Positions 13,322 through 62,663 of a stretch of DNA of 64,000 nt are shown piece after piece. Under the pieces are notes generated by a model that was not told the DNA's origin, made no database searches, and worked only from the letters and a program-made list of their open reading frames with translations. The translations under genes and the position numbers were made by a program. Source of the stretch: an uncultured Gammaproteobacteria bacterium (GTDB lineage: Bacteria > Pseudomonadota > Gammaproteobacteria > Magnimaribacterales > Magnimaribacteraceae); assembly GCA_964614345.1 (NCBI GenBank), contig CAZTLP010000004.1, positions 2,491 to 66,490 on the forward strand, in the 5' to 3' direction. How positions within the stretch are numbered: the stretch's first letter is position 1; every line of letters begins with the position of its first letter.

Positions 13322-13325
13322 AAAT

Positions 13326-14309
13326 ATGAAGCATTTTTTATTATTTCTTTTAATTGTTAGCACAATTTTTTCTTTTGAGATAAAAGCGGATGAGTTTATT
13401 CCTTATCAAAATAGAGCTGAAGTAATTGATTTTATTGAAATGATGCATAACAAGCATGGGTCTGATAAACAAGAACTGAAAGAATTATTTTCTAGTGTCA
13501 ATTTTCAAGAACGTGTTGTCCGAATAATGAATAGACAACCGGAAGGCACAATGACTTGGTCAAGTTATAAGAACATGATGGTTACCGATGACAGAATAGA
13601 TGCTGGGAAACAATTTATTAGTTTGTATAAAGAAGATTTAAAACGTGCTGAAGATATCTATGGAGTTCCAGCATCAATAATAGCTTCTATTATTGGAATA
13701 GAAACAAGGTACGGAAAAGTTACTGGGAATATTAGGGTTTTAGATTCACTAAGTACTTTGTCTTTTGATTACCCAAGAAGAGCTAAATTTTTTAAAGTCC
13801 AACTAGAAGAATTCCTTTTACTAGCTGAAGAAGAAAACTGGAACCCTACTAACATAAAAGGATCTATAGCAGGAGCTATGGGATTTGGCCAATTTATGCC
13901 TGATAGTTATAGAAACTATTCTGTAGATTTTGATTTTGATGGAAAAAGAGATATTTTAAATAATCCTGTAGATGCAATAGGAAGTGTAGCCAACTTTTTA
14001 AATAAAAAAGGTAAATGGGAACCAAATACAAAAATTGTATTAAAAGCAACTCTCAATGGGGAAAGGCCTAAGCTTAAATCAACTTTTAAACCATATATTA
14101 AGGTTTCTGATTTAAAGTCTTTAGGTATTTCACCAGTAGCAAAGTTGCAAAATCAATTACGGGTTATTCCTATAGAGTTAGAGATAGAGAAGGGTTATGA
14201 ATATTGGTTGGGTTTAAAAAATTATCAAGCTATATCAAGATATAATAGGAGTAAGCTATACATTATGGCAGTTTATGAGTTTAGTGAATCTTTAGCTGAA
14301 TTCTTTTAA
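13326..14309 (+). CDS. mltB: Lytic murein transglycosylase B-like
   Basis: 327 aa with a signal peptide. IIGIETRYG catalytic-Glu block and GAMGFGQFMPDSY, typical of the MltB/Slt35 family. Confidence 0.85.
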   Translation: MKHFLLFLLIVSTIFSFEIKADEFIPYQNRAEVIDFIEMMHNKHGSDKQELKELFSSVNFQERVVRIMNRQPEGTMTWSSYKNMMVTDDRIDAGKQFISLYKEDLKRAEDIYGVPASIIASIIGIETRYGKVTGNIRVLDSLSTLSFDYPRRAKFFKVQLEEFLLLAEEENWNPTNIKGSIAGAMGFGQFMPDSYRNYSVDFDFDGKRDILNNPVDAIGSVANFLNKKGKWEPNTKIVLKATLNGERPKLKSTFKPYIKVSDLKSLGISPVAKLQNQLRVIPIELEIEKGYEYWLGLKNYQAISRYNRSKLYIMAVYEFSESLAEFF

Positions 14310-14318
14310 TAAAGAGAA

Positions 14319-15476
14319 ATGTTAAAAAAATTATTTTATTTAGTTGTCAGTCTTTTTCTCCCAATACTCATGTTTGGAAATGAAAGTTTTATTCCTGATC
14401 CACCTTCCTTGAGTTCAGCAAATTATATCTTGATAGATTCAACTACAAATCGGGTATTAGCTAACTTAAACGAGGATGAACAGATTGAACCAGCAAGTAT
14501 CACTAAAATTATGACAGGGTATATCGTTTCTGATCAAATCCAAGATGGATTCCTAAGTCTAGATGATCAGGTCTTGATAAGCGAGAATTGTTGGAGAAAG
14601 AAAGGCTCTAGAATGTTTATTGAAGAAAGTTCGAGAGTATCTCTTCTAGATTTAATAAAAGGGATGGTAATACAGTCTGGTAATGATGCTACTTGTGCTA
14701 TAGCAGAACACGTAGCAGGCTCAGAAGATAACTTTGTAGATCTTATGATGCGATACGCTAATAGAATGGAATTAACAAATACTAGTTTTGTTAATCCTTC
14801 AGGGTGGCCTGACCCTGAACACTATTCTTCAGCTCAAGATATAGCAAAACTATCAATGCTCTTAATAAAAGATTTTCCTGAGCATTACTCTCTTTATAAA
14901 GAAAAATGGTTTACTTACAACAATATTCGTCAAAGAAACCGCAATGCGCTTCTTTGGCAAGATGATTCAATTGATGGATTAAAAACTGGACATACAGATT
15001 CAGCAGGATTTTGCTTAGTTTCTTCAGGCGTAAGAGAACAAACAAGACTAATTGCCGTAACCTTAAAAAGTAGTTCAGAAAAAAGCAGACTCACTGATAA
15101 CAGAAGATTGCTTGATTATGGCTTCAGGTACTTTAGGACTAAAAAATTAGTAAACAAGGGACAAAATATTAAAGAAGAACAGGTTTGGGGTGGTGAGACT
15201 GAGAAAGTAGGTATAGCTCCAATAGAGGACTTCTATCTAACTCTTCCTTTAAGAGATTTCAAAAAGATAGAGTCCTTCATATCTTTAAATGATTATCTTC
15301 AAGCTCCAATTTCAGAAGATGAAATAGTTGGGAAAATGATTTTTAAATTAGGCGAAGAGGAGGTTGGATCTGTAGATTTGGTTACAGTTAATGAAGTAAA
15401 CAGCCTAGGCTTGCTTGGAAGGGCTTGGTCTAATATCAAGTTATTAGTCTATAGGTTTCTAATGGAAGAAGAATAA
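14319..15476 (+). CDS. dacA: D-alanyl-D-alanine carboxypeptidase (PBP5/6 type)
   Basis: 385 aa with a signal peptide and the three class A LMM-PBP motifs: SITK, SGND and KTGHT. Confidence 0.85.
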   Translation: MLKKLFYLVVSLFLPILMFGNESFIPDPPSLSSANYILIDSTTNRVLANLNEDEQIEPASITKIMTGYIVSDQIQDGFLSLDDQVLISENCWRKKGSRMFIEESSRVSLLDLIKGMVIQSGNDATCAIAEHVAGSEDNFVDLMMRYANRMELTNTSFVNPSGWPDPEHYSSAQDIAKLSMLLIKDFPEHYSLYKEKWFTYNNIRQRNRNALLWQDDSIDGLKTGHTDSAGFCLVSSGVREQTRLIAVTLKSSSEKSRLTDNRRLLDYGFRYFRTKKLVNKGQNIKEEQVWGGETEKVGIAPIEDFYLTLPLRDFKKIESFISLNDYLQAPISEDEIVGKMIFKLGEEEVGSVDLVTVNEVNSLGLLGRAWSNIKLLVYRFLMEEE

Positions 15477-28596: not shown

Positions 28597-28878
28597 CTAC
28601 TTCTTTACTGCCATCTCTTTCTTTTTTTCTCTTCTTTTACCTTCCTTAAACAACATAACTATCTTCTCAACTAAGCCTAAAGACAATAAGGTTAAGATAA
28701 TCAGAACTGTTAAACCGCTGATGATTATTTGGCTGTTAAGACTTATCTCTTTTCCCCAAATTACCACTGGTTTTGAATCAAGTAGGAACTGAGTGTCACC
28801 AAATATTAAAGCTAATAACACTGCTAAAATAATGGAAAACAAGTAGATTCTAGGCATTACTTCATTTGCAGAAGACAA
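28597..28878 (-). CDS. Small two-TM membrane protein with a lysine-rich tail (in the position of E. coli yhhL next to rsmD)
   Basis: 93-aa ORF. The internal Met at 28857 forms a TAATG junction with the rsmD stop, so an 86-aa product is equally likely. It has hydrophobic segments and a KRREKKKE tail. The functional call is from position only. Confidence 0.5.
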   Translation of the reverse strand: MSSANEVMPRIYLFSIILAVLLALIFGDTQFLLDSKPVVIWGKEISLNSQIIISGLTVLIILTLLSLGLVEKIVMLFKEGKRREKKKEMAVKK

Positions 28879-29471: not shown

Positions 29472-29972
29472 ATGGACATGATAATTTGCCGAAATATGGA
29501 CCCTGATCCAGTTAACAAAGAGTTTCTTCGAGCCATGCGTGGCATTACTTCGACGGTTACAGTGTTATCAGCAAAGGATGGTTCAAGTAAAGAAGCTATG
29601 ACAGCAACTTCTGTGGCTTCTCTATCTCTCGATCCGCCAACAATGTTAGTTTGCATAAATCATGAAGCTACCATTCACAATATTTTGAAAGAAGGCTTGG
29701 GTTTTTGTATTAATATTTTATCTGTTGGTCAAGAAGGCTTGGCAGATATATGTAGCATTAAGGGAAAGGAAGAACAAAGGTTTTTAGAAGGGAATTGGTC
29801 AGAATTCGAAGGCATTCCATACAATGAAGAATCTCAGTCCAATATGTTCTGTAAATGTATTAAGACAATAGAGCACACTACACACACAATTTATTTAGGC
29901 GAAATTACTAAAGTCTTAAATCAAAACAATTTCAATCCTTTACTTTATAAGGACGGAAATTATTTAGATTAA
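29472..29972 (+). CDS. Flavin reductase domain protein (HpaC/NADH:FMN oxidoreductase-like)
   Basis: 166 aa. FLRAMRGITSTVTVLS...AMTATSVASLSLDPPTMLVCI is the typical flavin reductase-like domain core. Confidence 0.8.
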   Translation: MDMIICRNMDPDPVNKEFLRAMRGITSTVTVLSAKDGSSKEAMTATSVASLSLDPPTMLVCINHEATIHNILKEGLGFCINILSVGQEGLADICSIKGKEEQRFLEGNWSEFEGIPYNEESQSNMFCKCIKTIEHTTHTIYLGEITKVLNQNNFNPLLYKDGNYLD

Positions 29973-29977
29973 TTAAT

Positions 29978-32299
29978 ATGAAAAGCATATATACGTGGCG
30001 GCCTTTACCTAAATTCTTTCATATCTTTCTTTTATTATTTTCTTTCTCTTCAATTCTCTCTTCTGAGATTCTGATAGATGGAAAGTTATCTGAAAAGGAA
30101 TGGCAAAATGCTAGAGAAGTTAACAAATTCTATGAAGTATTCCCTTTTTCTTTGAATGATGTTTCAGGAAACACAAGGGTTCTTATAGCAGACGATGAGA
30201 AAGGAATATATTTTGGATTTATTAACACACAGTCGAACGAATCTATAAGAGCAAACCAGCATCAACGTGATCAAGGAGCAAGACCTCCTGTAGGGGATCA
30301 GGTTGGTGTAACTTTAGATTTTGATAACGACGGAAAGACTGCTTATAGGTTTTCAGTTAATGCAGGAAATTCAATTAATGATGGGACTGTTATAAATGAG
30401 AATGAGCAAAATCTAGACTGGGATGGTGATTGGGTATCTGCAACTAGCATTTCGGATAATGGTTGGTATGCAGAGATATTTGTCCCTTGGGCAATCACTT
30501 CTATGAAGTCTCAAAAAGGGGAGGAACGAACAATAGGGTTTTGTTTTTATAGAATGATGATTGCCGAATATAAGGTATCTGCTACATGCAAAGGGAGTCC
30601 TTATGTAAATAAATTTCTTTCAGTATTTGATGAAATGAATTTTAAAAAATACGATGTTTCCCAGTTGGACTTCTTTCCTTATTTAACGGTTTCAGACGAT
30701 GCTGCAACGAAAGAGAAAGATACCAAGGTGGGAGCTGAAGTTTTCTGGAAAATTGACTCTAGTAAACAATTAAATGCCACCTTTAATCCAGATTTTGGTC
30801 AGGTTGAGAGTGATGAGCTGGTTGTTAATTTTTCTGCTACCGAAACCTATTACTCAGATAAGCGACCCTTTTTTGCAGAAAATCAATCTATGTTTGAGGT
30901 TCAAGGTTATCAAATGTTTTACGTGATCAACACCAGACGCATAGGCGCAGCCCCGGATTATAACTGCTCCAGTTTGTCTTCCAACCTGATACCCCTGTGC
31001 AATGCAAACAAAAAGGGCACTACAGACATAGATTTGGCGGTTCGATATATCCAACAAACTGAGAATCTGGATTTTGGATTCTTAGGAGCTTCTGAAAAAG
31101 ATGAGGAGTTTAGTCAAGGAAGAGATTTTTATGCTACTAAATTAAGAAAAACCAATAAAAACTTTTCAGTTGGATATTTGGGTACTTATGTTGAAAGGCC
31201 AGTTCTAAATCGAGAAGCCACTGTACACACTGCTGATTTCGAATACTGGGCTTCTGAAGATCTCAGGGTAAGTGGAGTTCTAATGAATTCAAAAGTTGAT
31301 GATCAAGATGGGTATGGGTTTAGAGTTGGATACGGCTATACGCCTTCAAAAACGTTTTCTGGAGGTATGGGAATTTGGTATTTCGATAAAAAAATAGATT
31401 TGAGTGACATGGGGTATTTATTTAGAAATGATCAAGCCTTCTTTTCGGGAAGGTTTGAATGGAAACAGCCAGAGTTCCCTGAAGCTTCTTTAACTAGAGA
31501 GAGAAGATACCAATTAGATTTTACTTATGAAACTGACAGTAAGGGTAATAAAGAGACTCCTCCAATTTCACTAACACTGACAAATGGATTTAAAAGCTCA
31601 TCTCAGGCGACGTTAAAAACTTTCTACAGGTTGAGTGGAAGGGACACCCTGATTACAAGAAAATATGAGCAAGCTCCTTTTGTAAATATGCCCACAGGGT
31701 ATGGTTTTGAATTTGAATACATGGGTCCATCGCGAGAATTCTTCCAGTACATGTTTCATTACAATCGAAAAAAAGGAGAGGAATACATGCCGGCTTTAGG
31801 CTGGAATACTGTTTATGATTTCTTCTTAGAGGTATCTCCTTCTGAATCTTTATCTTTGTCAGTGTTTTACCAAGAACACGAAGAAGATGACTGGTTAAAT
31901 TGGATTCAAGAAAATCTGTTAGCCACTTACGACATGAAACAGAGAGTAACAGTAGCAGGGCTTAACTGGTTTAAAGGCGAAAAGCATGAGTTAAGAGTTA
32001 AGGCACAAATGGTAGCTTTTACTGCAAGAAATCCAATGCCCTTTTTAGCAGATCAGTTTGGGAATCTAAATACTTCTCCAAAAAAGATTGCAGTACCTCC
32101 TATCACATTAAGTGATTTGGCTTTCCAAGTTAGATACAGATATGAATTGATGCCACTTTCCTATCTCTATGTTGTTTACACCAAAGGCGGAAGGGTAGTA
32201 GGAATGGATGAAGAAGACAGTTTAAGAAAAATCTATAAACGTCCTTGGGAAGATCCTCAGGCTGATACTTTTACCGTAAAATTAAGGTATAGATTCTAA
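29978..32299 (+). CDS. Secreted ~770-aa protein, paralogue 1: CBM9/DOMON-like N-terminal region plus a large predicted outer-membrane beta-barrel (DUF5916-like architecture)
   Basis: 773 aa with a signal peptide. N-terminal IDGKLSEKEWQNA...KFYEVFPF. Central blocks NPDFGQVESDELVVNF and YSDKRPFFAENQ. The C-terminus TVKLRYRF ends in an aromatic residue, as in OMP beta-signals. The family name is recalled from memory, not searched. Confidence 0.65.
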   Translation: MKSIYTWRPLPKFFHIFLLLFSFSSILSSEILIDGKLSEKEWQNAREVNKFYEVFPFSLNDVSGNTRVLIADDEKGIYFGFINTQSNESIRANQHQRDQGARPPVGDQVGVTLDFDNDGKTAYRFSVNAGNSINDGTVINENEQNLDWDGDWVSATSISDNGWYAEIFVPWAITSMKSQKGEERTIGFCFYRMMIAEYKVSATCKGSPYVNKFLSVFDEMNFKKYDVSQLDFFPYLTVSDDAATKEKDTKVGAEVFWKIDSSKQLNATFNPDFGQVESDELVVNFSATETYYSDKRPFFAENQSMFEVQGYQMFYVINTRRIGAAPDYNCSSLSSNLIPLCNANKKGTTDIDLAVRYIQQTENLDFGFLGASEKDEEFSQGRDFYATKLRKTNKNFSVGYLGTYVERPVLNREATVHTADFEYWASEDLRVSGVLMNSKVDDQDGYGFRVGYGYTPSKTFSGGMGIWYFDKKIDLSDMGYLFRNDQAFFSGRFEWKQPEFPEASLTRERRYQLDFTYETDSKGNKETPPISLTLTNGFKSSSQATLKTFYRLSGRDTLITRKYEQAPFVNMPTGYGFEFEYMGPSREFFQYMFHYNRKKGEEYMPALGWNTVYDFFLEVSPSESLSLSVFYQEHEEDDWLNWIQENLLATYDMKQRVTVAGLNWFKGEKHELRVKAQMVAFTARNPMPFLADQFGNLNTSPKKIAVPPITLSDLAFQVRYRYELMPLSYLYVVYTKGGRVVGMDEEDSLRKIYKRPWEDPQADTFTVKLRYRF

Positions 32300-32395
32300 A
32301 CTAACCTTTTTTTATATGAGTTTCTAGGCCTATGGATTGCTTGTGTTTCTTTTCCTTAGCCTTAGAATAGCCCCTCATTTTTAGGAGTAAATACC

Positions 32396-34717
32396 TTGCA
32401 TAGGAAGCTAAATCCTTTTTCCTGCTTTGTTTTAACATTCTTTTTATTTATCGCATTGCCAGTGTATTCAGTGGATATCAAGATTGATGGTGTTTTGGAT
32501 GAAGAGGATTGGTCTTCCGCCCGAGAGTGGACCAAATATTATGAATCAATGCCGTTTTCTTTAGCGGAGCCAAAACATTATCAGAAAGTTCTAGTTCAGC
32601 AAGATGAGAAAGGAATGTATTTTGGTTTTATTAATGAACAGCCAAGAGAATCAATACGTGCGAATAAGCATGAAAGAGATGATGAAATGGCAAATGCTGA
32701 TAAAGCAGGTTTAGCGATAGATTTTGATGGTGACGGTCTTACTGCTTATGGCTTCACTGTTTCGGCCGGAGGCTCTATAAGTGATGGCATCTATAGAAAT
32801 GAGAACGAAGCTAACTATGACTGGGATGCTGATTGGGATTCAGCCACTCATATTGAAGGAGATGCATGGTTTATTGAAATGTTTATTCCTTGGAGTATAG
32901 CTCCCATGAAGGCTCAAAAAGGAGAAGTTAGAACCGTTAAATTATCTTTTTGGAGAATGGTAGCAGCTGAATGGCGAGTCAATACCTCAATAAAAGGCAA
33001 TCCAAGACAAGAGAAATTTATGTCTCTTTTCCATGAATACGACTTTAAAAACTACAGCGTTTCGAAAATAGATTTCTTCCCGTACATAAATATTACTGAA
33101 GACAGAATCAAAGAAGATCAAGAGAATAAGGTAGGAGCAGAGATATTTTGGAAGATTGATTCGGGTAAACAACTAAACATAGCTTTAAATCCTGATTTTG
33201 GACAAGTTGAAAGCGATGAGCTTGTAGTTAACTTTACTCAGAGTGAAACCTTTTATTCAGATAAAAGACCTTTCTTTTCTGAAAATCACTCTTTGTTTGA
33301 TGTGAAAGGCTATAGATTCTTTTACGTCATAAACACAAGGAGAATCGGTTCTGCTCCAGATTACAATTGCTCTGAATACACTGATTCCTTAAAAAATATG
33401 TGCGAGGCAAGTCAAGAAGGTATTACTGACATTGACTATGCCATACGGTATACACAGCAAGGCGAGTCCATTGACTTTGGTTTTCTAAGTGCTTCTGAAG
33501 CCGACGAACAATTCAGTCAAGGAAATGATTTTTATGCAATAAGAACTAGAAAAAACACTGAGAATTACTCCTTGGGTTATCTAGGGACATACACACAAAG
33601 ACCGGTTCTGGATAGAGAAGCTAAAGTGCATTCAATCGATTTAACTTATAGGCCTACAGATAAAGTGAGAGTAGACACTGTCTTTATTACTTCAGATGTT
33701 GAACAAGGACTGGGTGAAATCAAGAAATCAGGAGAAGCATTTAGATTTAGACTAACGGCTTCGCCTAGAAAAGGGAGATGGCATGATATGGGAGTCTTCT
33801 TGTTTGGGAAAGAATTGGATATAACGGATATGGGTTATCAAATATCAAATAACTGGCTTTTCCTGGGTAGTCAGAATGGTTTAAAGTTTTCAGACTACGA
33901 CGAGTCATCTATTTTTCTTTCCAATGAAATTGAAGTGGGCTATTCGTTTGAGGGCAATGCAGACTTAGATAAATCAAGTCAATCCATCTATTTGTCTTAT
34001 GAAAGTAGTTTTAGAAATACTTCTAACATTGAGTTCACAAATTTTTATAGAACTCCTAGCAAAGACTTCTGGATAACTCGGGGTAACTTGATTTCCCCTT
34101 ACATCAAAATGCCTAAGAATTATGGAACTAAGTTGCAATTCATGGGCCCTTCTACAGATTTCTTTAAATATATCTTGGAGGTTAAAAGGGAAAAAGGATC
34201 GCAATGGATGTCTAGTGCATTAGGTTTTAAAACTTCTTATATGGCTATGGCAGAGTTTACCCCCAGAGATAATCTTAGTCTGAGTTTGATGTACCAACAT
34301 AGCAATGAAGACAATTGGTTAAATTGGATTGAAGGTAATTTGTTGGGGATTTATAAATCTAAACAAAGAGTTACGGTTGGGTCAATGAATTGGTTTGGTG
34401 GAGATAAACATGAGTTAAGAATGAAAGCTCAAATGGTAGCTTTCACAGCTAGGCAACCAAGTGCTTATCTTGGCAATGCAACAGGATCTCTGAATCCTAT
34501 TGAAATGGTACTTCCGCCTTTTAGTTTGAGTGATTTAGCTTTCCAAGTTAGGTATCGTTATGAAATTCTGCCTTTAGCTTATCTCTATGTGGTTTATTCC
34601 AAAGGAGGAAGAATAGTTGAACTTGATGAAGAGGACAGTCTAGATAAATTGTATAAACGTCCTTGGAATGATCCTCAGGCAGATAACTTCACAGTAAAAG
34701 TTAGATACAGATTCTAA
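32396..34717 (+). CDS. Secreted ~770-aa protein, paralogue 2 (same architecture as 29978-32299)
   Basis: 773 aa. TTG start preceded by AGGAG. Signal peptide ending in VYS. It shares the NPDFGQVESDELVVNF, YSDKRPFFSEN, INTRRIG, PDYNCS...C and LAFQVRYRYE...TVKVRYRF blocks with its neighbours. Confidence 0.65.
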   Translation: MHRKLNPFSCFVLTFFLFIALPVYSVDIKIDGVLDEEDWSSAREWTKYYESMPFSLAEPKHYQKVLVQQDEKGMYFGFINEQPRESIRANKHERDDEMANADKAGLAIDFDGDGLTAYGFTVSAGGSISDGIYRNENEANYDWDADWDSATHIEGDAWFIEMFIPWSIAPMKAQKGEVRTVKLSFWRMVAAEWRVNTSIKGNPRQEKFMSLFHEYDFKNYSVSKIDFFPYINITEDRIKEDQENKVGAEIFWKIDSGKQLNIALNPDFGQVESDELVVNFTQSETFYSDKRPFFSENHSLFDVKGYRFFYVINTRRIGSAPDYNCSEYTDSLKNMCEASQEGITDIDYAIRYTQQGESIDFGFLSASEADEQFSQGNDFYAIRTRKNTENYSLGYLGTYTQRPVLDREAKVHSIDLTYRPTDKVRVDTVFITSDVEQGLGEIKKSGEAFRFRLTASPRKGRWHDMGVFLFGKELDITDMGYQISNNWLFLGSQNGLKFSDYDESSIFLSNEIEVGYSFEGNADLDKSSQSIYLSYESSFRNTSNIEFTNFYRTPSKDFWITRGNLISPYIKMPKNYGTKLQFMGPSTDFFKYILEVKREKGSQWMSSALGFKTSYMAMAEFTPRDNLSLSLMYQHSNEDNWLNWIEGNLLGIYKSKQRVTVGSMNWFGGDKHELRMKAQMVAFTARQPSAYLGNATGSLNPIEMVLPPFSLSDLAFQVRYRYEILPLAYLYVVYSKGGRIVELDEEDSLDKLYKRPWNDPQADNFTVKVRYRF

Positions 34718-34767
34718 GAGGATAATTTTACTGTAAAATTAAGCCATTGGTTCAAGCAGAGGAATGA

Positions 34768-37065
34768 ATGACATCAAGGAAGGTTATATTTAGAAATATT
34801 TCTTTAATCCCATTTCTTCTTTACAGCAGTTTTCTTTTTTCTACTATAAAAGTGGATGGAAAGTTAGATGAAGAAGAATGGAGATCTGCTCAAGAGATAA
34901 GTAAATTCTATCAAGTTGGACCTTTCACACTAGAAGAACCAGAACAGAAAACTGTAGTAAAAGTTTACGAAACTGAAGATGGTTTGTATGTAGGCTATAT
35001 TAATTACCAACCCACAGAGACTATGCGATCCCAACAGCATGAAAGAGATGCTGATAATGCCAATGCAGATAAAGTAGGACTGACTGTGGATTTTGACAGT
35101 GATGCCTTGATGGCTTACTCGTTTACTGTATCTTTAGGGGGTTCTTTATGGGACGCGGTTTATAGAAACGAGAATGAGCAAAAAAAGGATTGGGACGCAG
35201 ATTGGGTAGCAAAGACATCAATTGACGAGGATGTCTGGTTTGCAGAGTTCTTTATACCTTGGACTGTTGCCCCTATGAAGAAGCAAGAAGGAGACTTAAG
35301 AAAAATAAGAATCAGTTTTTGGCGAATGTCTTTGGAAATATCTAAAGCTTTTGCCACTATTAAATCTAATCCTACAAGGTCTAGATTTATTTCTACCTTA
35401 AATGATCTTTATGTAAAAAATTTTGATAGCTCAAGTTTAGATTTTTTTCCTTATGTAACTGCTTCAAATGAAAGAACTACAGATGATAATAATGTAAAAG
35501 CAGGAGCAGAGATTTTCTGGAAGATAGACTCTGGGAGCCAATTAAATATTGCAATAAATCCTGACTTTGGCCAAGTAGAAAGCGATGATGTAGTAATTAA
35601 TTTCTCTGCTATGGAGACCTTCTACTCTGATAAAAGACCTTTCTTTTCAGAAAATCAGTCTATGTTTGATGTTGATGGGTACCGTTTTCTTTATGTAATC
35701 AATACACGAAGAATAGGCGGCTCTCCCAATTACAACTGTTCAGATTATAGTTCTGAATTAGAAGCTCTTTGTAGTGCAAACCAAAAAGGAAATTCAGATA
35801 TAAATCTCGCTTTCAGGTATACAAAAGTTGGTCAGAACTATGATTTAGGTTTCCTGGGCGCACTCGAATCTGATGAACCCTTCAGTGAAGGAAGAGATTA
35901 TTTTGCTACTAGGTACCGAGTAAAAAAAGAAAACTTGTCTTTTGGGTACTTAGGTACTTTCACTAAGAATGAAGTATTAAGCAGGAATGCTAATGTCAAT
36001 ACTGTTGACATGGTTTACCGTCCTAATGAAGATTTTAGACTTTATGCTCTCTTCTTAAACTCTATTGTTGAAGAAGATAAAGGATATGGATTCCGTATGA
36101 GTTTAAGCAAACAAATTAACCAGAATTTATCTACTGGAGTAGGTTTTTATTATTTAGATAAAGACTTAGATATGAATGATATGGGATATTTAGTAAGAAA
36201 TGACTGGATTATGTTAGGTGGAAGAACAGAGCTGCAAAAAACAGATTTTAATGATGCTTCAAAAACACTAATAAGAACTTATCAGCATTCATACGGTTGT
36301 AGAGCACTATCTAATGGAGATAAAGAAGGCTGTTTTTCAGGATTTGAAATTAAAAACCAATTTAAGAATACCGCGCAGGTTGAAGCAGAAGTATTTTTTA
36401 GAACAAATGGTAGAGATAACTTAATTACTAGGGGTTCTGAGTTAGCTCCTTACGTTAAATTACCTCAAAATTATGGGATCGACTTTAAGTATGTTGGGCA
36501 AAAAAGAAAATTTTGGCAGTGGGATTTATTTATACAAAGATCTAAGGGCAGTGAATATTCAAGTGATCTTGGGTGGAGAAACAAATATTATTCTTCAATT
36601 AAAGCGTTTCCATTACCGAATTTAACTTTGAGACTTTCTTATTCTCATGAAAAGGAAATAAATTGGCTTAATTGGATTCAAGATAACCTTTTGGGCACCT
36701 ATGAAAAAACTCAGAGAAACACTAATTTCTCAATTAAGTATTTCAAAGGTAATCAACATGAATTGAGGGTCAAGGCTCAGTTAGTTGCTTTTAATGCTAA
36801 AAATCCTCAAGCCCAAATTGCCTCTGTTAATGGGGAATTGAATGAATCTTCACTTAATTTAGATCCTTTTAGTTTAGGACAATTAGCTTTTCAAATTCGT
36901 TATCGTTATGAATTTATGCCTTTGGCTTATTTGTATGCTGTCTATACTAGGGGCGGTAGGATTTATGAAGCTGATGAAGAGGATGACTTAGGGACCTTGT
37001 ATAAAAGGCCTTGGGAAGATCCCTCAAAAGATAATTTTACTGTCAAAGTGAGATATAGATTCTAA
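34768..37065 (+). CDS. Secreted ~770-aa protein, paralogue 3 (same architecture as 29978-32299)
   Basis: 765 aa with a signal peptide. It has the same conserved N-terminal, central and C-terminal blocks, ending in TVKVRYRF. Confidence 0.65.
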   Translation: MTSRKVIFRNISLIPFLLYSSFLFSTIKVDGKLDEEEWRSAQEISKFYQVGPFTLEEPEQKTVVKVYETEDGLYVGYINYQPTETMRSQQHERDADNANADKVGLTVDFDSDALMAYSFTVSLGGSLWDAVYRNENEQKKDWDADWVAKTSIDEDVWFAEFFIPWTVAPMKKQEGDLRKIRISFWRMSLEISKAFATIKSNPTRSRFISTLNDLYVKNFDSSSLDFFPYVTASNERTTDDNNVKAGAEIFWKIDSGSQLNIAINPDFGQVESDDVVINFSAMETFYSDKRPFFSENQSMFDVDGYRFLYVINTRRIGGSPNYNCSDYSSELEALCSANQKGNSDINLAFRYTKVGQNYDLGFLGALESDEPFSEGRDYFATRYRVKKENLSFGYLGTFTKNEVLSRNANVNTVDMVYRPNEDFRLYALFLNSIVEEDKGYGFRMSLSKQINQNLSTGVGFYYLDKDLDMNDMGYLVRNDWIMLGGRTELQKTDFNDASKTLIRTYQHSYGCRALSNGDKEGCFSGFEIKNQFKNTAQVEAEVFFRTNGRDNLITRGSELAPYVKLPQNYGIDFKYVGQKRKFWQWDLFIQRSKGSEYSSDLGWRNKYYSSIKAFPLPNLTLRLSYSHEKEINWLNWIQDNLLGTYEKTQRNTNFSIKYFKGNQHELRVKAQLVAFNAKNPQAQIASVNGELNESSLNLDPFSLGQLAFQIRYRYEFMPLAYLYAVYTRGGRIYEADEEDDLGTLYKRPWEDPSKDNFTVKVRYRF

Positions 37066-37256
37066 GTCTTGTGTTCTTCTGAACAGAACCAATGCTCTTC
37101 AGAGCCTATAGCTTCAGACTTAGGAATATTAACTCCGCAAGTAACACATCTAACCATTTCAAGGCTAACTTTTTCTTTTATATCTGGTTTTCTTTTGAAA
37201 AGAATATATAACCAAATTAGTCCTGCTATTCCTAATATTAGGATTAACTGAGACAA
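37062..37256 (-). CDS. Small membrane-anchored zinc-ribbon protein (PP0621-like)
   Basis: 64 aa: an N-terminal TM helix, a basic linker, then MVRCVTCGVNIPKSEA...HWFCSEEHK (CxxC...C..H). Preferred over the antisense 60-aa ORF, which has no such features. Confidence 0.5.
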   Translation of the reverse strand: MSQLILILGIAGLIWLYILFKRKPDIKEKVSLEMVRCVTCGVNIPKSEAIGSEEHWFCSEEHKT

Positions 37257-37258
37257 AT

Positions 37259-38131
37259 CTACTCTTCCTTAAGGGGTGGAGGAATCTCTTCATCACCTAG
37301 CAATCCAAAAGATAATCGACTAGCCCAAGATCTCTTAGGTCTTATCAATTCATTAGAATCGAAAGTTGGATAACTGGTTTTTAAAATTTCGAAATTTTTC
37401 ACTCTTAATTCTTCATAACCCAAGAGTCCATAAGCTTTTACTAAAATAGATAGAGCTTCAGGAACTTGAGGAGTGTCAGGCATATGTTCAATTACATATC
37501 GAGCTCTTCCTACTGCTGCTATGTAGGCTTTCCTATCCATATAAAATTCAGCAACGTAAAGTTCATGCTGAGCTAATAAATTTTTAAGATATATCATTCT
37601 TTGAGTGGCATGAGGGGCATAAGGAGAGTCAGGGTATCTAGCTAAAAATTCACTTAAATCTTCAAAGGATTGTTGAGCTGGATCTATGTCTCTTCTTGAT
37701 AAGTCAGAAGTAAAATATCGAGAAAACAAACCAGAATCGTCTGTGAAAGCAGAAAGTCCCCTCAAATAATATGCGTAGCCTGTATGCGGATGACGTGGGT
37801 GTAGATTAATGAACCTCTCAGCAGCAGATCTGGCTGCTTCAAATTCAAAATTCCTATAGTAGGCATATATTAGTTCTGCTTGAGCTTGTTCCGCATATCT
37901 ACCAAACGGGAAGCGTCTTTCGAGTATTTCGAGACTGGTTATAGCATTAGTGAAATTACCATTCTTTAGTCTGGTTTGAGATGCATCATAAAGTTCTTTC
38001 TCTAGAAGACGTTCATCCGGTTGTTCTTCATTACTTGAACAAGAAGTAAGTAAAAAAATTGAACCTAAAAAAAGTAATGAACAACTTTTAATTAACATTC
38101 TTAATGAGTTGATATTATGTCGCTTTGGCAT
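37259..38131 (-). CDS. bamD: Outer membrane protein assembly factor BamD
   Basis: 290 aa. Lipoprotein signal (LLTSC), TPR-like repeats, and the conserved position divergent from rluD. Confidence 0.85.
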   Translation of the reverse strand: MPKRHNINSLRMLIKSCSLLFLGSIFLLTSCSSNEEQPDERLLEKELYDASQTRLKNGNFTNAITSLEILERRFPFGRYAEQAQAELIYAYYRNFEFEAARSAAERFINLHPRHPHTGYAYYLRGLSAFTDDSGLFSRYFTSDLSRRDIDPAQQSFEDLSEFLARYPDSPYAPHATQRMIYLKNLLAQHELYVAEFYMDRKAYIAAVGRARYVIEHMPDTPQVPEALSILVKAYGLLGYEELRVKNFEILKTSYPTFDSNELIRPKRSWASRLSFGLLGDEEIPPPLKEE

Positions 38132-39861: not shown

Positions 39862-40724
39862 AAAATATAGGTTTTATAGGTCTTGGTGTCATGGGGGCGC
39901 CAATGGCTGGGCATATATCAAATGCAGGATACAGTCTAAAAGTTTTTAATCGAACTAAAGAGAAATCAGAACTCTGGAAAAAAGAGTACTCAGGTGAAGT
40001 CATGCTTTCTCCAGCTGAATTAGCTGAAAGTTGCGACATGGTTTTTTTGTGTGTTGGTAATGATCAAGATGTTGAAGAAATCGTAAAAGGAAAAAATGGG
40101 GTTCTGGAAGGATTAAAAGCAGGAGGAATTATCATTGATCACACTACCACCTCATCAGTTTTAGCTAAAAACATGTCTGCAAGCTCGTATGAAAAAGAAG
40201 TTTCCTTTATCGATGCACCTGTTTCAGGTGGAGAGATAGGTGCCAAAGAAGGAACATTGACTGTTATGGCTGGAGGAGATGAAGAGGCGTTTACATCTAG
40301 CACTGAAGTGATCAATCTTTATTCTAAATATTGTAAAAGAATGGGGGACTCTGGATCAGGACAGCTCACTAAAATGGTTAATCAAATCTGTATTGCGGGC
40401 TTAATCCAGGGGTTAGCAGAAGGTATGCATTTCTCAGAAAAAGCAGGACTAGATACTAAAGAGGTTATAGAGGTTATTTCAAAAGGAGCAGCTCAATCAT
40501 GGCAAATGGAGAATAGATGGGAAACTATGTTGTCGGATTATTATGAGCATGGATTTGCCGTGGATTGGATGAGAAAAGATCTAGGCTTTGTTCTAGAAGA
40601 AGCTTTAGACAATGGATCTAAGTTGGAGGTTACATCTCTTGTGGATACCTTTTATGCAGAAATACAACAATTAGGAGGAGGAAGATGGGATACCTCAAGC
40701 CTATTTAGGAGGTTAAGAAGTTAA
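39858..40724 (+). CDS. NAD(P)-dependent beta-hydroxyacid dehydrogenase (3-hydroxyisobutyrate/tartronate semialdehyde reductase family)
   Basis: 288 aa. Rossmann motif IGFIGLGVMGAPMAGH, DAPVSGG, and the GSGQLTKMVNQ block of the HIBADH family. Confidence 0.85.
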   Translation: MKNIGFIGLGVMGAPMAGHISNAGYSLKVFNRTKEKSELWKKEYSGEVMLSPAELAESCDMVFLCVGNDQDVEEIVKGKNGVLEGLKAGGIIIDHTTTSSVLAKNMSASSYEKEVSFIDAPVSGGEIGAKEGTLTVMAGGDEEAFTSSTEVINLYSKYCKRMGDSGSGQLTKMVNQICIAGLIQGLAEGMHFSEKAGLDTKEVIEVISKGAAQSWQMENRWETMLSDYYEHGFAVDWMRKDLGFVLEEALDNGSKLEVTSLVDTFYAEIQQLGGGRWDTSSLFRRLRS

Positions 40725-41665
40725 TGAGCTCCTTTCCGGGTCCAGATAGTGAGTTTTGTAAAAATCTTTTTAAAGAGACTAAAACAAGCTTGTATGAATT
40801 AGCTGAAAAGTTAGAAATTCATTCAATCTCAAAAAATTTTTTTACAGAAATAGTTATTCCTTTAACGAGTTTTTTTTACTCTCTAGAAAATAGAAATAAA
40901 CCTTATTTCATTTGCTTTACAGGAGGCCAGGGTTCAGGGAAAACAACCCTGTCTGACTTTGTGCAGTTAGTTCTTAAAGAAGGCTGCAACAAAAAGAGTA
41001 TCGGGTTTTCCATAGATGACATATACAAGACCCCAGAAGAAAGAGAGAGCTTAGCTAAATCTATCCATCCTCTTTGCAAAGTTAGAGGAGTACCCGGAAC
41101 GCATGACATTAGCCTAGGGCTAGATACTTTAGACAGTCTTGTAGAAGCTAATGATTCTTCTCTTACGCCCATACCTTCTTTCTCTAAGCCTTTGGATAGG
41201 CATCTTCCTAAAGATTCTTGGCCTGTTTACAAAGGGAAACCAGATTTTATTTTTTTTGATGCTTGGTGTGGAGGAGCCAGGCCAGTTTCAACAGAAAACT
41301 GGCAACTACCCATGAATACACTTGAAAGAGAAGAAGATCCAAAAGGGGTTTGGTCAAAGTGGAGTAATAATGAATTGGCTGGTGATTATCAAGTTCTATT
41401 CAATAGATTCGATCTTTTGTTGATGATTAAAGTGCCAAACATGGAACATGTCTACGAGAGTAGGTGGCTTCAAGAGCAAACTTTAGAAAAAACACTCAAA
41501 GACCCAGAATTAAAAAGGAAAATAATGAGTAAACAGGAAGTATTTAGGTTTGTTATGCATTACGAAAGATTAACTCGTTATATATTAGAAGAAATGCCTT
41601 CATTTGCAGATATTGTTCTAGAGAGGGATAAAGGATTTAATTTCTCTTTCCTTAAAACTCCTTAG
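40724..41665 (+). CDS. P-loop kinase resembling plant/yeast-type D-glycerate 3-kinase (GLYK)
   Basis: 313 aa with the Walker A motif FTGGQGSGKTTL (GLYK homologues have PQG(C/S)GK(T/S)). Its ATG shares one base with the preceding stop (TAATG). The family assignment is from memory. Confidence 0.5.
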   Translation: MSSFPGPDSEFCKNLFKETKTSLYELAEKLEIHSISKNFFTEIVIPLTSFFYSLENRNKPYFICFTGGQGSGKTTLSDFVQLVLKEGCNKKSIGFSIDDIYKTPEERESLAKSIHPLCKVRGVPGTHDISLGLDTLDSLVEANDSSLTPIPSFSKPLDRHLPKDSWPVYKGKPDFIFFDAWCGGARPVSTENWQLPMNTLEREEDPKGVWSKWSNNELAGDYQVLFNRFDLLLMIKVPNMEHVYESRWLQEQTLEKTLKDPELKRKIMSKQEVFRFVMHYERLTRYILEEMPSFADIVLERDKGFNFSFLKTP

Positions 41666-53556: not shown

Positions 53557-54000
53557 ATGTTTAATTGGTCAACAATTCTTCCCCAGCCTAATAATAACTA
53601 TTCAGGTTCTAAGATTTCTCTTTATTATCTGGTGTTATTAGCCTGTATGTTTACTTTTCGTGGTTGTGTCCATTATTTTGCTCCGGATGGAGGTAATGGG
53701 ATTATTGCAGGCATACCTCTAGAAACTTACCCGCAAGGAGCTGTCCAAACTATTAATACGTTCGCTGGTGTTTCTGGAAAGTATCATTTGATGGAAGCAG
53801 TATTGGCTTGGTTGATTATTTTTAGATGGAGAGCTTTAATCCCAATTTTTTTTCTATATCTTGGAATAACTGAGATTCTGGGACTTATTTTAATAAATTG
53901 GAAACCCTTACCCGTTACACCACCTGGGGAAATAGGCGCTTATATTTTATTTCCTATTACTTTGGTTGCATTTCTCTTATCTGTCAGACAATCTAAGTGA
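53557..54000 (+). CDS. Small multi-pass membrane protein, unknown function
   Basis: 147 aa with about four hydrophobic segments. Its stop overlaps the GTG start of the next gene. Confidence 0.5.
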   Translation: MFNWSTILPQPNNNYSGSKISLYYLVLLACMFTFRGCVHYFAPDGGNGIIAGIPLETYPQGAVQTINTFAGVSGKYHLMEAVLAWLIIFRWRALIPIFFLYLGITEILGLILINWKPLPVTPPGEIGAYILFPITLVAFLLSVRQSK

Positions 54001-54953: not shown

Positions 54954-54996
54954 ATTTTTCTAGATAAATTAAAGGACATTATTTCTGAAATTAACC

Positions 54997-56193: not shown

Positions 56194-56197
56194 GATT

Positions 56198-58529: not shown

Positions 58530-58622
58530 GCCCTTACTTTATCAAACTGATTATTACCCCACATTGTACTTGTCTAAAAATGGTATTAACATTAATACAA
58601 AGTTACATTTATTGGAGGTTAT

Positions 58623-59162: not shown

Positions 59163-59165
59163 CTT

Positions 59166-60017: not shown

Positions 60018-60116
60018 AAGAAATAAATTACTTTACTCAATAATTAACTTTAATTTTTTCTTTTATTTTTGTAATTAAAGAGTATCTTTCATATAGAAAA
60101 TAATTCAAGTTACTAA

Positions 60117-61388: not shown

Positions 61389-61434
61389 TAGTCTTCTGAT
61401 ACAACGCATATTTACTGAGTGATAGAATACTAAG

Positions 61435-62661: not shown

Positions 62662-62663
62662 TT

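What the first reader, a model, noticed from the sequence alone, without database searches (positions are those of the whole stretch)
29978..37065. Tandem triplication of a ~770-aa secreted CBM9/DOMON-like plus beta-barrel protein, directly behind a flavin reductase
Three consecutive same-strand genes of 773, 773 and 765 aa encode clear paralogues, each with its own signal peptide.
- Near-identical blocks: NPDFGQVESD(E/D)(L/V)V(V/I)NF, YSDKRPFF(A/S)EN, INTRRIG, a conserved Cys pair (P(D/N)YNCS...C), and the C-terminal LAFQ(V/I)RYRYE...KRPW.DP..D.FTVK(L/V)RYRF.
- The middle third (roughly residues 430-600) is strongly diverged, and the DNA is not recently duplicated. The copies therefore look maintained and specialised, perhaps in surface loops or substrate range.
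- The terminal aromatic residue and alternating pattern fit an outer-membrane barrel, but I see no TonB box or plug.
- The first copy starts 5 nt after a flavin reductase gene. DOMON-like folds can bind sugars or heme, which allows (speculatively) either glycan capture or a redox role at the cell surface.
Basis: partly seen in the sequence, partly recalled or inferred. Interest (0 to 1): 0.7.

Follow-up and report, generated by a model that had tools for sequence, protein, structure and literature searches.

The report
Three DUF5916 outer-membrane barrel paralogues in SAR86
Three neighbouring genes in a SAR86 marine bacterium encode diverged copies of a large, widespread but never-studied outer-membrane barrel protein (family DUF5916), most likely channels with different specificities; the flavin reductase in front of them is probably just a conserved neighbour.

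Summary
Three same-strand genes (773, 773 and 765 aa; 49-52% identical) follow a flavin reductase gene by 5 nt. The array recurs at 99.6-99.8% nt identity in six independent metagenome assemblies.

All three belong to Pfam DUF5916 (PF19313). This family has about 11,600 clusters at 50% identity, no solved relative, and no paper in the searchable library.

A confident AlphaFold model (pLDDT 88.6, pTM 0.83) shows:
- a signal peptide;
- a CBM9-like beta-sandwich;
- a barrel of about 24 strands with both termini on the short-turn (periplasmic) side;
- an 81-residue loop between strands 3 and 4 that is the most conserved part of the family.

The paralogues differ mainly in one contiguous wall, strands 9-18, not in surface loops.

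It is not a local triplication. Three old paralogue types occupy a variable slot of 1-3 copies between the reductase and bamD across about 40 SAR86 loci. The middle copy was inserted by recombination and left a relic gene end.

Reductase linkage exists only in SAR86. Candidate heme ligands are not conserved.

Best reading: TonB-independent outer-membrane channels with paralogue-specific specificity. The architecture is well supported; the function is inferred. This is a catalogued family of unknown function: moderately interesting, not categorically new.

The parts
29472..29972 (+). Flavin reductase gene (166 aa, no signal peptide). It is the first gene of the probable transcription unit and a conserved left neighbour of the array in SAR86.
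   Evidence: PF01613 E 1.4e-33. It falls below all NCBIfam equivalog cut-offs (RutF 92 bits vs 254.75). It precedes the first DUF5916 copy in about 40 SAR86 loci. It is absent next to DUF5916 in other taxa.
29978..32299 (+). DUF5916 copy 1 (type A), 773 aa.
   Evidence: PF19313 E 6e-28; CBM9_1 22.2 bits against a 23.4 cut-off. Orthologues are 83% (L081) and 67% (L084) identical. AlphaFold pLDDT 88.6.
29978..30064 (+). Copy 1 signal-peptide-like N-terminus (residues 1-29).
   Evidence: Basic n-region followed by a hydrophobic stretch FFHIFLLLFSFSSILS. In the model it is a low-confidence helix at residues 12-22. The cleavage site was not predicted with a dedicated tool.
30065..30649 (+). Copy 1 N-terminal CBM9/DOMON-like beta-sandwich (residues 30-224).
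   Evidence: Foldseek match to T. maritima CBM9 1i82_A, TM 0.65. CBM9_1 matches 32 of 52 family members. Family-invariant residues are W42, D107, D114, W148, D149, W152, W163, E166 and R192.
30662..32287 (+). Copy 1 beta-barrel, about 24 strands (residues 229-770), ending in the beta-signal FTVKLRYRF.
   Evidence: DSSP strand list of the model. Turns on the side of the termini are 2-8 residues. Foldseek hits are all outer-membrane barrels with TM below 0.45.
30785..31027 (+). Loop L2 between strands 3 and 4 (residues 270-350): NPDFGQVESD...YSDKRPFF...INTRRIG plus the Cys330/Cys341 pair. It is the most conserved element of the family and is inferred to fold into the lumen.
   Evidence: Invariant across phyla: P271, D272, F273, G274, V276, E277, D279, E289, R296, F298, F299, F306, R320, R321, G323. 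The region is non-strand with short helices in the model. The Cys pair occurs in only 38 of 115 sequences.
31262..31843 (+). Strands 9-18 (residues 429-622): the paralogue-specific wall.
   Evidence: Identity between paralogues is 0.27 on the lipid face and 0.28 on the lumen face, against 0.55 and 0.66 in the other strands. Identity within each orthologue group is still 0.5-0.7.
32383..32387 (+). Shine-Dalgarno AGGAG, 8 nt upstream of the TTG start of copy 2.
   Evidence: Read from the sequence.
32396..34717 (+). DUF5916 copy 2 (type B), 773 aa. This is the mobile type, inserted into an A-C array.
   Evidence: PF19313 E 5.4e-21. It is 79% identical to the L003 copy while the L003 flanking genes are only 59-66% identical. 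Type B also occurs alone in other contexts in genomes of about 50% GC.
34718..34753 (+). Relic 3' end of a type-A gene (would read DNFTVKLSHWF) directly after the stop codon of copy 2.
   Evidence: It has 1 mismatch to the L081 type-A 23-mer; such matches occur only here and at the true copy-1 end, with 0 expected by chance. The junction to copy 3 equals the A-to-C junction of L081. The relic is present in all A-B-C lineages, some with their own stop codon.
34724..34740 (.). Perfect palindrome AATTTTAC-T-GTAAAATT inside the relic, 27 nt before the copy 3 start codon.
   Evidence: The arms are invariant in six lineages, while the next 17 nt vary at about 10 positions. There is no other exact copy in the window. 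Its function is unknown.
34759..34763 (+). Shine-Dalgarno GAGGA, 4 nt upstream of the ATG of copy 3.
   Evidence: Read from the sequence. It is conserved in all A-B-C and A-C junctions.
34768..37065 (+). DUF5916 copy 3 (type C), 765 aa.
   Evidence: PF19313 E 3.1e-24. The L081 orthologue is 76% identical.
37259..38131 (-). bamD (YfiO), convergent with the array. It is the conserved right boundary of the slot, not part of the system.
   Evidence: PF13525 E 1.4e-66. It follows the last DUF5916 copy in every SAR86 locus that extends that far.

Best explanation
The three genes encode Sec-exported, BAM-assembled outer-membrane proteins of the uncharacterised DUF5916 family.

Architecture:
- Each protein has an N-terminal CBM9/DOMON-like beta-sandwich attached to the periplasmic end of strand 1.
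- This is followed by a barrel of about 24 strands.
- An 81-residue loop between strands 3 and 4 is invariant across the family.

Proposed mechanism (inferred):
- The loop folds into the lumen against the conserved half of the wall (strands 1-8 and 19-24), much as a porin constriction loop or a plug does.
- This leaves a passage lined by strands 9-18, the half that differs between paralogues.
- The proteins would then be TonB-independent channels for hydrophilic solutes, possibly glycans. The three paralogues would have different specificities.
- The sandwich would act as a periplasmic glycan-binding or gating module.

Genomic setting: the three genes sit in a SAR86 slot between a flavin reductase and bamD, where paralogue types are gained, lost and exchanged. 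The reductase is a syntenic and probably co-transcribed neighbour, not a demonstrated partner.

Shown: family membership, predicted architecture and topology, the pattern of conservation, and the evolutionary history of the slot.
Inferred: the lumen position of the loop, the channel function, and the nature of the substrate.
For: - Family: PF19313 in all three copies. The family has 11,614 clusters at 50% identity with E<=1e-3.
- Model: pLDDT 88.6 and pTM 0.83, with 24 strands.
- Topology: turns on the side of the termini are 2-8 residues; loops on the other side reach 81 residues.
- Export and assembly signals: signal-peptide-like N-termini and a terminal ...VK(L/V)RYRF.
- Fold matches are only to outer-membrane barrels: MtrB, LptD, TonB-dependent transporters, AlgE and porins. 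CBM9 1i82 matches the N-domain at TM 0.65. CBM9_1 matches 32 of 52 relatives.
- Five relatives carry an N-terminal SPOR domain plus linker, which places the N-terminal side in the periplasm.
- L2 holds most of the family-invariant residues.
- The lumen face is polar and charged. It is more conserved (0.66) than the lipid face (0.55) in strands 1-8 and 19-24, but is free to vary in strands 9-18 (0.28).
- The divergent wall is still conserved within each orthologue group, at 0.5-0.7.
- pN/pS is 0.15 for D2 and 0.08 for D3.
- Stand-alone type-B copies sit among hydrolases, an MFS_2 transporter and a TetR regulator.
- SAR86 is known to rely on outer-membrane transport (PMC3358033).
Against: - No member of the family has been studied, and no substrate, conductance or localisation data exist.
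- Model coordinates could not be inspected. The positions of L2 and of the N-domain relative to the lumen are inferences from conservation and strand parity.
- No conserved transport or catabolic partner accompanies the gene across taxa.
- In strands 9-18 both the lipid face and the lumen face diverge. This also fits relaxed constraint or different protein partners, rather than pore specificity.
- The three window proteins themselves fall below the CBM9_1 threshold.
Confidence: 0.45

Rival explanations
1. Envelope tether or structural protein. The barrel anchors the protein in the outer membrane. The periplasmic CBM9-like domain binds peptidoglycan glycan strands. The protein would link the outer membrane to the cell wall, as OmpA or Pal do, or would sense or handle peptidoglycan fragments.
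For: - Five relatives add an N-terminal SPOR (peptidoglycan-binding) domain on a long Pro/Ser-rich linker.
- A periplasmic CBM9-like sensor domain has been proposed to recognise peptidoglycan glycan fragments in Shewanella PghK (bioRxiv 10.1101/2023.05.05.539549).
- The SAR86 slot lies beside bamD and other housekeeping genes.
- N-domain invariants are rich in Trp and Asp/Glu, which is lectin-like.
Against: - A 24-strand barrel with a family-invariant internal loop and a polar lumen is far more than an anchor needs.
- Three specialised paralogues and a mobile type B landing in catabolic islands are hard to explain for a tether.
- SPOR is present in only a small minority of the family.
Confidence: 0.2
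2. Export conduit for a polymer or lipid, working like AlgE or LptD. A periplasmic beta-sandwich would hand a glycan or glycolipid to a large barrel for delivery to the cell surface.
For: - LptD (N-terminal beta-jellyroll plus 26 strands) and AlgE are among the best fold matches.
- The N-terminal sandwich lies on the periplasmic side.
Against: - No OstA, LptD or Alginate_exp Pfam match in 52 members at E<=1.
- TM-scores are below 0.35.
- No polysaccharide or lipid synthesis or export genes are adjacent in any of the contexts examined.
Confidence: 0.1
3. Redox conduit. A DOMON-like heme domain and an MtrB-like barrel would move electrons across the outer membrane, fed by the adjacent flavin reductase.
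For: - MtrB (6r2q_B) is the top Foldseek hit (E 7e-9).
- DOMON/EB_dh relatives of CBM9 bind heme (established knowledge).
- The reductase is 5 nt upstream and is conserved there in about 40 SAR86 loci.
Against: - TM to MtrB is only 0.38/0.44.
- There is no MtrB_PioB Pfam match, and EB_dh matches 1 of 52 members at E 0.04.
- H95, M176 and K177 are not conserved in the family, and there is no CxxCH motif.
- No cytochrome genes lie nearby.
- The reductase is cytoplasmic and is absent next to DUF5916 outside SAR86 and next to stand-alone type-B copies.
Confidence: 0.04
4. Surface-variation cassette. The paralogues would be exchanged to evade phages or grazers that use the barrel as a receptor.
For: Copy number and type vary at a fixed slot, and type B is laterally mobile.
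Against: - Extracellular loops other than L2 are short, and they diverge no more than the strands (0.49 vs 0.48).
- pN/pS is low.
- The paralogue types are old and conserved within each type.
Confidence: 0.05

Closest known systems
Pfam PF19313 (DUF5916) proteins, annotated 'DUF5916 domain-containing protein' or 'carbohydrate binding family 9 domain-containing protein'
   Same: All three proteins match above the gathering score. They share the family architecture and the invariant NPDFGQVE.D...R.FF...RR.G loop.
   Different: Nothing functional is known for the family. The additions here are the SAR86 slot of 1-3 copies, the three paralogue types and the recombination relic.
CBM9 of Thermotoga maritima xylanase 10A (PDB 1I82)
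   Same: The N-terminal domain has the same beta-sandwich fold (TM 0.65, 16% identity). Many relatives match Pfam CBM9_1.
   Different: The window proteins are below the CBM9_1 cut-off. The family profile finds no PDB sequence even at E 10. The domain faces the periplasm rather than being part of a secreted enzyme. Sugar binding is untested.
TonB-dependent transporters (BtuB, FemA, Cir, PfeA)
   Same: Both are large outer-membrane barrels with an internal occluding element. SAR86 is rich in such transporters.
   Different: There is no Plug or TonB_dep_Rec match and no TonB box. About 24 strands are predicted, not 22. The candidate occluding element is a loop between strands 3 and 4, not an N-terminal plug.
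General porins with constriction loop L3 (OmpF, OmpC)
   Same: The proposed working principle is the same: an inward-folded loop packs on one wall and defines the pore together with the opposite wall (inference).
   Different: Porins have 16 strands and form trimers, and there is no sequence relation. TM-scores are about 0.19/0.35.
MtrB (PDB 6R2Q chain B) and LptD (PDB 8H1R, 9FZ5)
   Same: These are the best structural matches. Both are very large monomeric barrels, and LptD also has an N-terminal periplasmic beta-sandwich.
   Different: TM-scores are 0.27-0.44. Both have 26 strands. There are no cytochrome or LptE partner genes nearby and no Pfam relation.
PghK sensor kinase of Shewanella (periplasmic CBM9-like domain)
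   Same: It is a precedent for a CBM9/DOMON-like domain working in the periplasm, proposed to recognise peptidoglycan glycan fragments.
   Different: PghK is an inner-membrane histidine kinase and has no barrel. It was not compared with the window proteins at sequence or structure level.

Membership tests
DUF5916 (PF19313) | Profile match above Pfam's gathering score (22.6 bits) | tested here: met
   98.3, 75.4 and 86.1 bits for copies 1-3. NCBI names for close homologues are 'DUF5916 domain-containing protein [SAR86 cluster bacterium]'.
DUF5916 (PF19313) | Family architecture: N-terminal CBM9_1-like domain followed by the DUF5916 barrel region | tested here: met
   Model with a sandwich at residues 30-224 and a barrel at 229-770. 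CBM9_1 co-occurs in 32 of 52 members.
CBM9 carbohydrate-binding module (PF06452 / CAZy CBM9) | Profile match above the gathering score (23.4 bits) | tested here: not met
   Copy 1 scores 22.2 bits. Copies 2 and 3 have no match at E<=0.01.
CBM9 carbohydrate-binding module (PF06452 / CAZy CBM9) | CBM9 beta-sandwich fold | tested here: met
   1i82_A: E 3.9e-5, TM 0.65 normalised on the target, 212 aligned columns.
CBM9 carbohydrate-binding module (PF06452 / CAZy CBM9) | Binding of sugar by the aromatic clamp | not testable with these tools
   Four Trp residues and several acidic residues are invariant, but they could not be mapped onto the 1I82 binding site.
TonB-dependent transporter | Plug (PF07715) and TonB_dep_Rec (PF00593) domains | tested here: not met
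   No match in the window proteins or in 52 relatives at E<=1.
TonB-dependent transporter | N-terminal TonB box on a flexible extension | tested here: not met
   The mature N-terminus runs straight into the sandwich motif I.IDG.L.E.EW within a few residues of the signal peptide.
TonB-dependent transporter | 22-strand barrel | tested here: not met
   24 strands in the model.
MtrB/PioB porin-cytochrome conduit | Adjacent periplasmic or surface multiheme cytochrome genes | tested here: not met
   None within about 10 kb on either side. No CxxCH motif in the proteins.
MtrB/PioB porin-cytochrome conduit | Sequence or fold membership | tested here: inconclusive
   MtrB is the top Foldseek hit (E 7.3e-9), but TM is 0.38/0.44 and rmsd 13 A. 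There is no Pfam match.
LptD | OstA_N jellyroll and LptD barrel profiles | tested here: not met
   No Pfam match. Foldseek TM is 0.27-0.31. The lptE partner was not searched for.
Heme-binding DOMON / EB_dh domain | Conserved axial heme ligands (Met/His/Lys) | tested here: not met
   In a 115-sequence alignment H95 is His in 42, M176 is Met in 87 (otherwise Phe/Tyr) and K177 is Lys in 42. None is family-wide. EB_dh matches 1 of 52 members at E 0.04.

The most novel reading that the evidence does not exclude
DUF5916 may be a previously unrecognised class of TonB-independent outer-membrane channel. Its features would be a barrel of about 24 strands gated by an invariant inward-folded loop and coupled to a periplasmic lectin-like domain. 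In SAR86, one of the most abundant bacteria of the surface ocean, a fixed chromosomal slot would hold 1-3 interchangeable, laterally mobile paralogues that set which large solutes can cross the outer membrane.
Probability: 0.3. Interest if true: 0.75.

Novelty: new member of a known kind. Interest (0 to 1): 0.5.

Why it matters
DUF5916 is a very large family of diderm bacteria, with about 11,600 clusters at 50% identity. It occurs in Gammaproteobacteria, Bacteroidota, Gemmatimonadota, Acidobacteriota and other phyla. No study was found and there is no solved structure.

SAR86 has a streamlined genome yet spends up to about 7 kb on three copies in a conserved slot. This suggests an important envelope function in a globally abundant heterotroph.

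Knowing what these barrels pass or bind would add a missing element to models of how oligotrophic marine bacteria take up organic matter.

The predicted architecture is testable: 24 strands, an invariant internal loop and a periplasmic CBM9-like domain. It gives a concrete starting point for experiments in culturable carriers such as Lysobacter, Luteimonas and Cellvibrionaceae.

Tried and rejected
- **Literature.** Searches for 'DUF5916', 'binding family 9 domain-containing', and 'carbohydrate binding family 9' together with 'outer membrane' found no papers.
- **PDB by sequence.** Neither the single protein (E<=1) nor the 115-sequence profile (E<=10) gave a hit.
- **First AlphaFold run.** With 34 SAR86-only sequences it reached only pLDDT 65.7 and left residues 266-400 unresolved. 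Adding distant homologues fixed this.
- **Conserved-neighbour search.** Raw-ORF clustering over 80 genome loci found only lineage-specific synteny and a generic ABC transporter. Spurious ORFs in high-GC genomes made this approach weak. Pfam-annotated contexts in a Porticoccaceae/SAR92-type contig (P0137), a Cellvibrionaceae genome and a Bacteroidota MAG share nothing.
- **RND efflux link.** One 1,836-aa 'AcrB-DUF5916' protein is a read-through of two adjacent genes, because the DUF5916 part keeps its own signal peptide. No AcrB homologue occurs in the other 94 loci.
- **Riboswitch or other RNA element upstream.** Rfam finds only a tRNA in the window.
- **Promoter and terminator scan.** It found no more sites than shuffled sequence gives and no terminator between the copies.
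- **Chimerism of copy 1.** Its identity to the L081 orthologue is uniform along the gene.
- **Taxon of the ~50% GC carriers of type B.** The closest named flanking-gene homologue is only 'Pseudomonadales bacterium' at 74% identity. This remains unresolved.
Full report
**1. The observation**

The window carries three consecutive + strand ORFs at 29978-32299 (773 aa, ATG), 32396-34717 (773 aa, TTG) and 34768-37065 (765 aa, ATG). I call them D1, D2 and D3.

Divergence is concentrated in residues 426-625. There, identity between paralogues is 0.23-0.48, against 0.7-0.8 in residues 251-325 and at the C-terminus. DNA similarity between the copies is confined to short stretches of 60-77% identity.

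The upstream ORF 29472-29972 is a Flavin_Reduct protein (E 1.4e-33). It has no signal peptide and ends 5 nt before D1.

D2's TTG start is preceded at 8 nt by AGGAG, and D3's ATG by GAGGA. Public gene calls start D2 25 codons later and thereby remove its signal peptide.

The array is not a misassembly. Six independent metagenome assemblies carry it at 99.6-99.8% nt identity. The polymorphisms among them give pN/pS of 0.15 for D2 and 0.08 for D3, within the 0-0.23 range of the housekeeping neighbours. D1 shows zero non-synonymous changes by construction, because those loci were retrieved by the exact D1 sequence.

**2. Organism and surroundings**

The window has about 36% GC, and the closest named homologues are from 'SAR86 cluster bacterium'. 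The neighbourhood consists of housekeeping genes:
- an ABC ATPase, ilvD, thioredoxin and rho upstream;
- rsmD on the minus strand;
- the flavin reductase, then D1-D3;
- a 64-aa ORF and bamD on the minus strand;
- rluD, pgeF, a HIBADH-like gene, a conserved unknown ORF, then ilvBNC.

No terminator-like site separates the reductase and the three copies. A four-gene transcript is therefore plausible but not shown.

**3. What the proteins are**

All three match Pfam DUF5916 (PF19313; 75-98 bits against a cut-off of 22.6). D1 just misses CBM9_1 (22.2 against 23.4 bits).

The family is very large. A profile search of 1.84 billion representatives found 11,614 clusters at 50% identity with E<=1e-3 and 5,637 with E<=1e-10. 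Members occur in many diderm phyla: Gammaproteobacteria (SAR86, Lysobacterales, Cellvibrionaceae, Porticoccaceae), Gemmatimonadota, Acidobacteriota, Bacteroidota/Rhodothermia, Ignavibacteria, Marinimicrobia, Latescibacterota and Myxococcota.

No paper in the library mentions the family. No PDB chain matches by sequence or by profile.

**4. Structure**

A first AlphaFold run on SAR86 sequences only was mediocre (pLDDT 65.7). After distant homologues were added (115 sequences), the model reached pLDDT 88.6 and pTM 0.83. It shows:
- a signal-peptide helix;
- a beta-sandwich at residues 30-224;
- 24 long strands between residues 229 and 770.

Counting strands from either end puts both termini on the same side. 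Turns on that side are 2-8 residues, while loops on the opposite side are up to 81 residues. This is the usual signature of periplasmic termini (established knowledge of outer-membrane barrels). The chain ends in ...FTVK(L/V)RYRF, a typical beta-signal.

Foldseek finds only outer-membrane barrels: MtrB at E 7e-9 with TM 0.38/0.44, then LptD, TonB-dependent transporters, AlgE and porins. No match reaches TM 0.5. The sandwich matches T. maritima CBM9 (1i82_A) at TM 0.65. CBM9_1 is detected in 32 of 52 diverse family members, with a best E of 4.7e-11.

**5. Where the conservation lies**

Across phyla, the invariant residues cluster in the 81-residue segment between strands 3 and 4 (residues 270-350): P271, D272, F273, G274, V276, E277, D279, E289, R296, F298, F299, F306, R320, R321 and G323. 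A second set lies in the sandwich: W42, D107, D114, W148, D149, W152, W163, E166 and R192. The Cys330/Cys341 pair is confined to the SAR86-like subgroup, 38 of 115 sequences.

Within the barrel, the inward-facing residues are polar and charged. In strands 1-8 and 19-24 the inward face is more conserved between paralogues (0.66) than the lipid face (0.55). In strands 9-18 both faces are equally diverged (0.28 and 0.27), and in strands 13, 14, 17 and 18 the inward face is almost entirely different. Even so, the same region is 0.5-0.7 identical within each orthologue group. It is paralogue-specific, not simply unconstrained.

Extracellular loops other than L2 are short, and they diverge no more than the strands do (0.49 against 0.48).

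My inference is that L2 folds into the lumen and packs on the conserved half of the wall. The paralogue-specific half would then line whatever passage remains. I could not inspect coordinates, so this is not shown.

**6. Side of the membrane for the CBM9-like domain**

The sandwich joins strand 1 through a 4-residue linker at the periplasmic rim. Five distant relatives carry a signal peptide, a SPOR peptidoglycan-binding domain and a long Pro/Ser-rich linker in front of the sandwich. SPOR domains work in the periplasm (established knowledge).

The domain is therefore periplasmic, or inserted into the barrel from the periplasmic side.

There is a precedent for a periplasmic CBM9-like domain: the PghK sensor of Shewanella, proposed to recognise peptidoglycan glycan fragments (bioRxiv 10.1101/2023.05.05.539549).

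**7. The flavin reductase and the redox idea**

In every SAR86 locus that extends far enough (about 40), the reductase precedes the first DUF5916 copy. This is part of a larger conserved block, rho-rsmD-FR-[array]-bamD-rluD.

Outside SAR86, none of about 70 loci has a reductase homologue beside the gene; one has a homologue 3 kb away. Stand-alone type-B copies lack it too.

Other evidence against a redox role:
- Candidate heme ligands (H95, M176, K177) are not conserved across the family.
- There is no CxxCH motif.
- EB_dh matches one of 52 members at E 0.04.
- No cytochrome gene lies nearby.

The redox reading is therefore weak. The MtrB fold hit reflects barrel size.

**8. How the array arose**

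A neighbour-joining tree separates three old types within this SAR86 subclade: A (D1), B (D2) and C (D3). Typing of about 90 SAR86 loci shows a variable slot:
- A-B-C in the window and at least five further lineages, with type B 77-100% identical to D2;
- A-C in the lineages of L081 and L084;
- A'-B in about 17 loci;
- one or two C-like copies in L009 and L005;
- C-B-B and B-B in single loci.

Directly after D2's stop codon lies a relic of a type-A 3' end at 34718-34753. It has 1 mismatch to the L081 type-A 23-mer, with 0 such matches expected by chance. It is followed by the same ribosome-binding junction that links A to C in L081. The relic is present in all A-B-C lineages, in some with its own stop codon, for example DNFTVKLKYQF* in L099. 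D1 is not chimeric.

D2 is 79% identical to the L003 copy, although that genome's flanking genes are only 59-66% identical to the window's.

Type B also occurs alone, at 68-78% identity, in genomes of about 50% GC. In one group the gene has 0.40-0.44 GC against flanks of 0.45-0.52, next to an amidohydrolase, an MFS_2 transporter, an alpha/beta hydrolase and a TetR regulator. In the other group it sits next to an M19 dipeptidase, Ldh_2, PhyH and a P450.

The most economical account is that type B is laterally mobile and was inserted into an ancestral A-C array by recombination near the conserved gene end. The taxon of the 50% GC carriers could not be named.

**9. Mechanism and rivals**

Best supported (confidence about 0.45 for the whole statement, about 0.9 for the architecture alone): TonB-independent outer-membrane channels. 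The invariant loop constricts or plugs the barrel, and the paralogue-specific wall sets selectivity. The sandwich is a periplasmic binding or gating module.

Rivals:
- an outer-membrane to peptidoglycan tether or peptidoglycan-fragment handler (0.2), supported by the SPOR fusions and the PghK precedent;
- an export conduit working like LptD or AlgE (0.1);
- surface variation against phages (0.05);
- a redox conduit with the reductase (0.04).

**10. Comparison with known families and verdict**

The proteins are members of DUF5916. They are not TonB-dependent transporters: there are no Plug or receptor profiles, no TonB box, and 24 rather than 22 strands. They are not MtrB/PioB, LptD or EB_dh-type heme proteins by the tests listed. 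At sequence level they are only borderline CBM9, although the fold agrees.

The finding is a real and well-defined member of a catalogued but uncharacterised family. This work adds:
- a confident architecture;
- the location of the conserved and the paralogue-specific parts;
- the periplasmic placement of the CBM9-like domain;
- the cassette-like history of the SAR86 slot.

Function remains inferred. I score interest at 0.5.

Noticed in passing
window 34724-34740 (inside the relic 34718-34753): The relic of the type-A gene end contains a perfect 8+8 palindrome, AATTTTAC-N-GTAAAATT, 27 nt before the D3 start codon. Its arms are unchanged in six SAR86 lineages, while the 17 nt after it vary at about 10 positions. 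This suggests it has been kept for a reason, for example as an operator, an RNA element or a recombination site.
   Followed up: partly
window 37062-37256 (-): A 64-aa ORF lies 2 nt downstream of bamD and overlaps the D3 end by 4 nt. It has an N-terminal hydrophobic helix followed by CxxC...C..H (MSQLILILGIAGLIWLYILFKRK...CVTCGV...WFCSEEH). Public assemblies call it as a gene. It has no Pfam match.
   Followed up: partly
window 6688-8091 (-): An RPE65 / carotenoid-cleavage oxygenase family protein (E 7e-142). The SAR86 genome paper states that SAR86 appears to lack a retinal biosynthesis pathway for its proteorhodopsin (PMC3358033). A carotenoid-cleaving enzyme is therefore worth a look.
   Followed up: no
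loci L108-L117 and L131-L139 (metagenome contigs): Type-B DUF5916 genes 68-78% identical to D2 sit in genomes of about 50% GC. In L108-L117 the gene's own GC (0.40-0.44) is lower than its flanks, and the neighbours are catabolic genes. This pattern suggests lateral transfer from a low-GC SAR86-like donor. The recipient taxon was not identified.
   Followed up: partly
window 53997-63527: A cluster of three PhyH-family dioxygenases, two family III CoA-transferases, a cytochrome P450 and two Amidohydro_2 proteins. It looks like a catabolic island for a branched or lipid-like substrate.
   Followed up: no
window 10349-15476: A cell-wall gene cluster: PBP2-type transpeptidase, RodA, an SLT_2 lytic transglycosylase and a D-Ala-D-Ala carboxypeptidase.
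   Followed up: no
window 40724-41665 (+) and 28597-28878 (-): A 313-aa ORF is conserved across SAR86 loci at 60-77% identity but has no Pfam or NCBIfam match above threshold. A 93-aa predicted membrane ORF lies between rho and rsmD and is also called in public assemblies.
   Followed up: no
proteins P0333, P0341, P0346, P0350 (distant DUF5916 relatives): These relatives have the architecture signal peptide, SPOR domain, 100-250 residue Pro/Ser/Ala-rich linker, CBM9-like domain, barrel. A peptidoglycan-binding domain fused to an outer-membrane barrel of this family has, as far as I could find, not been described.
   Followed up: partly
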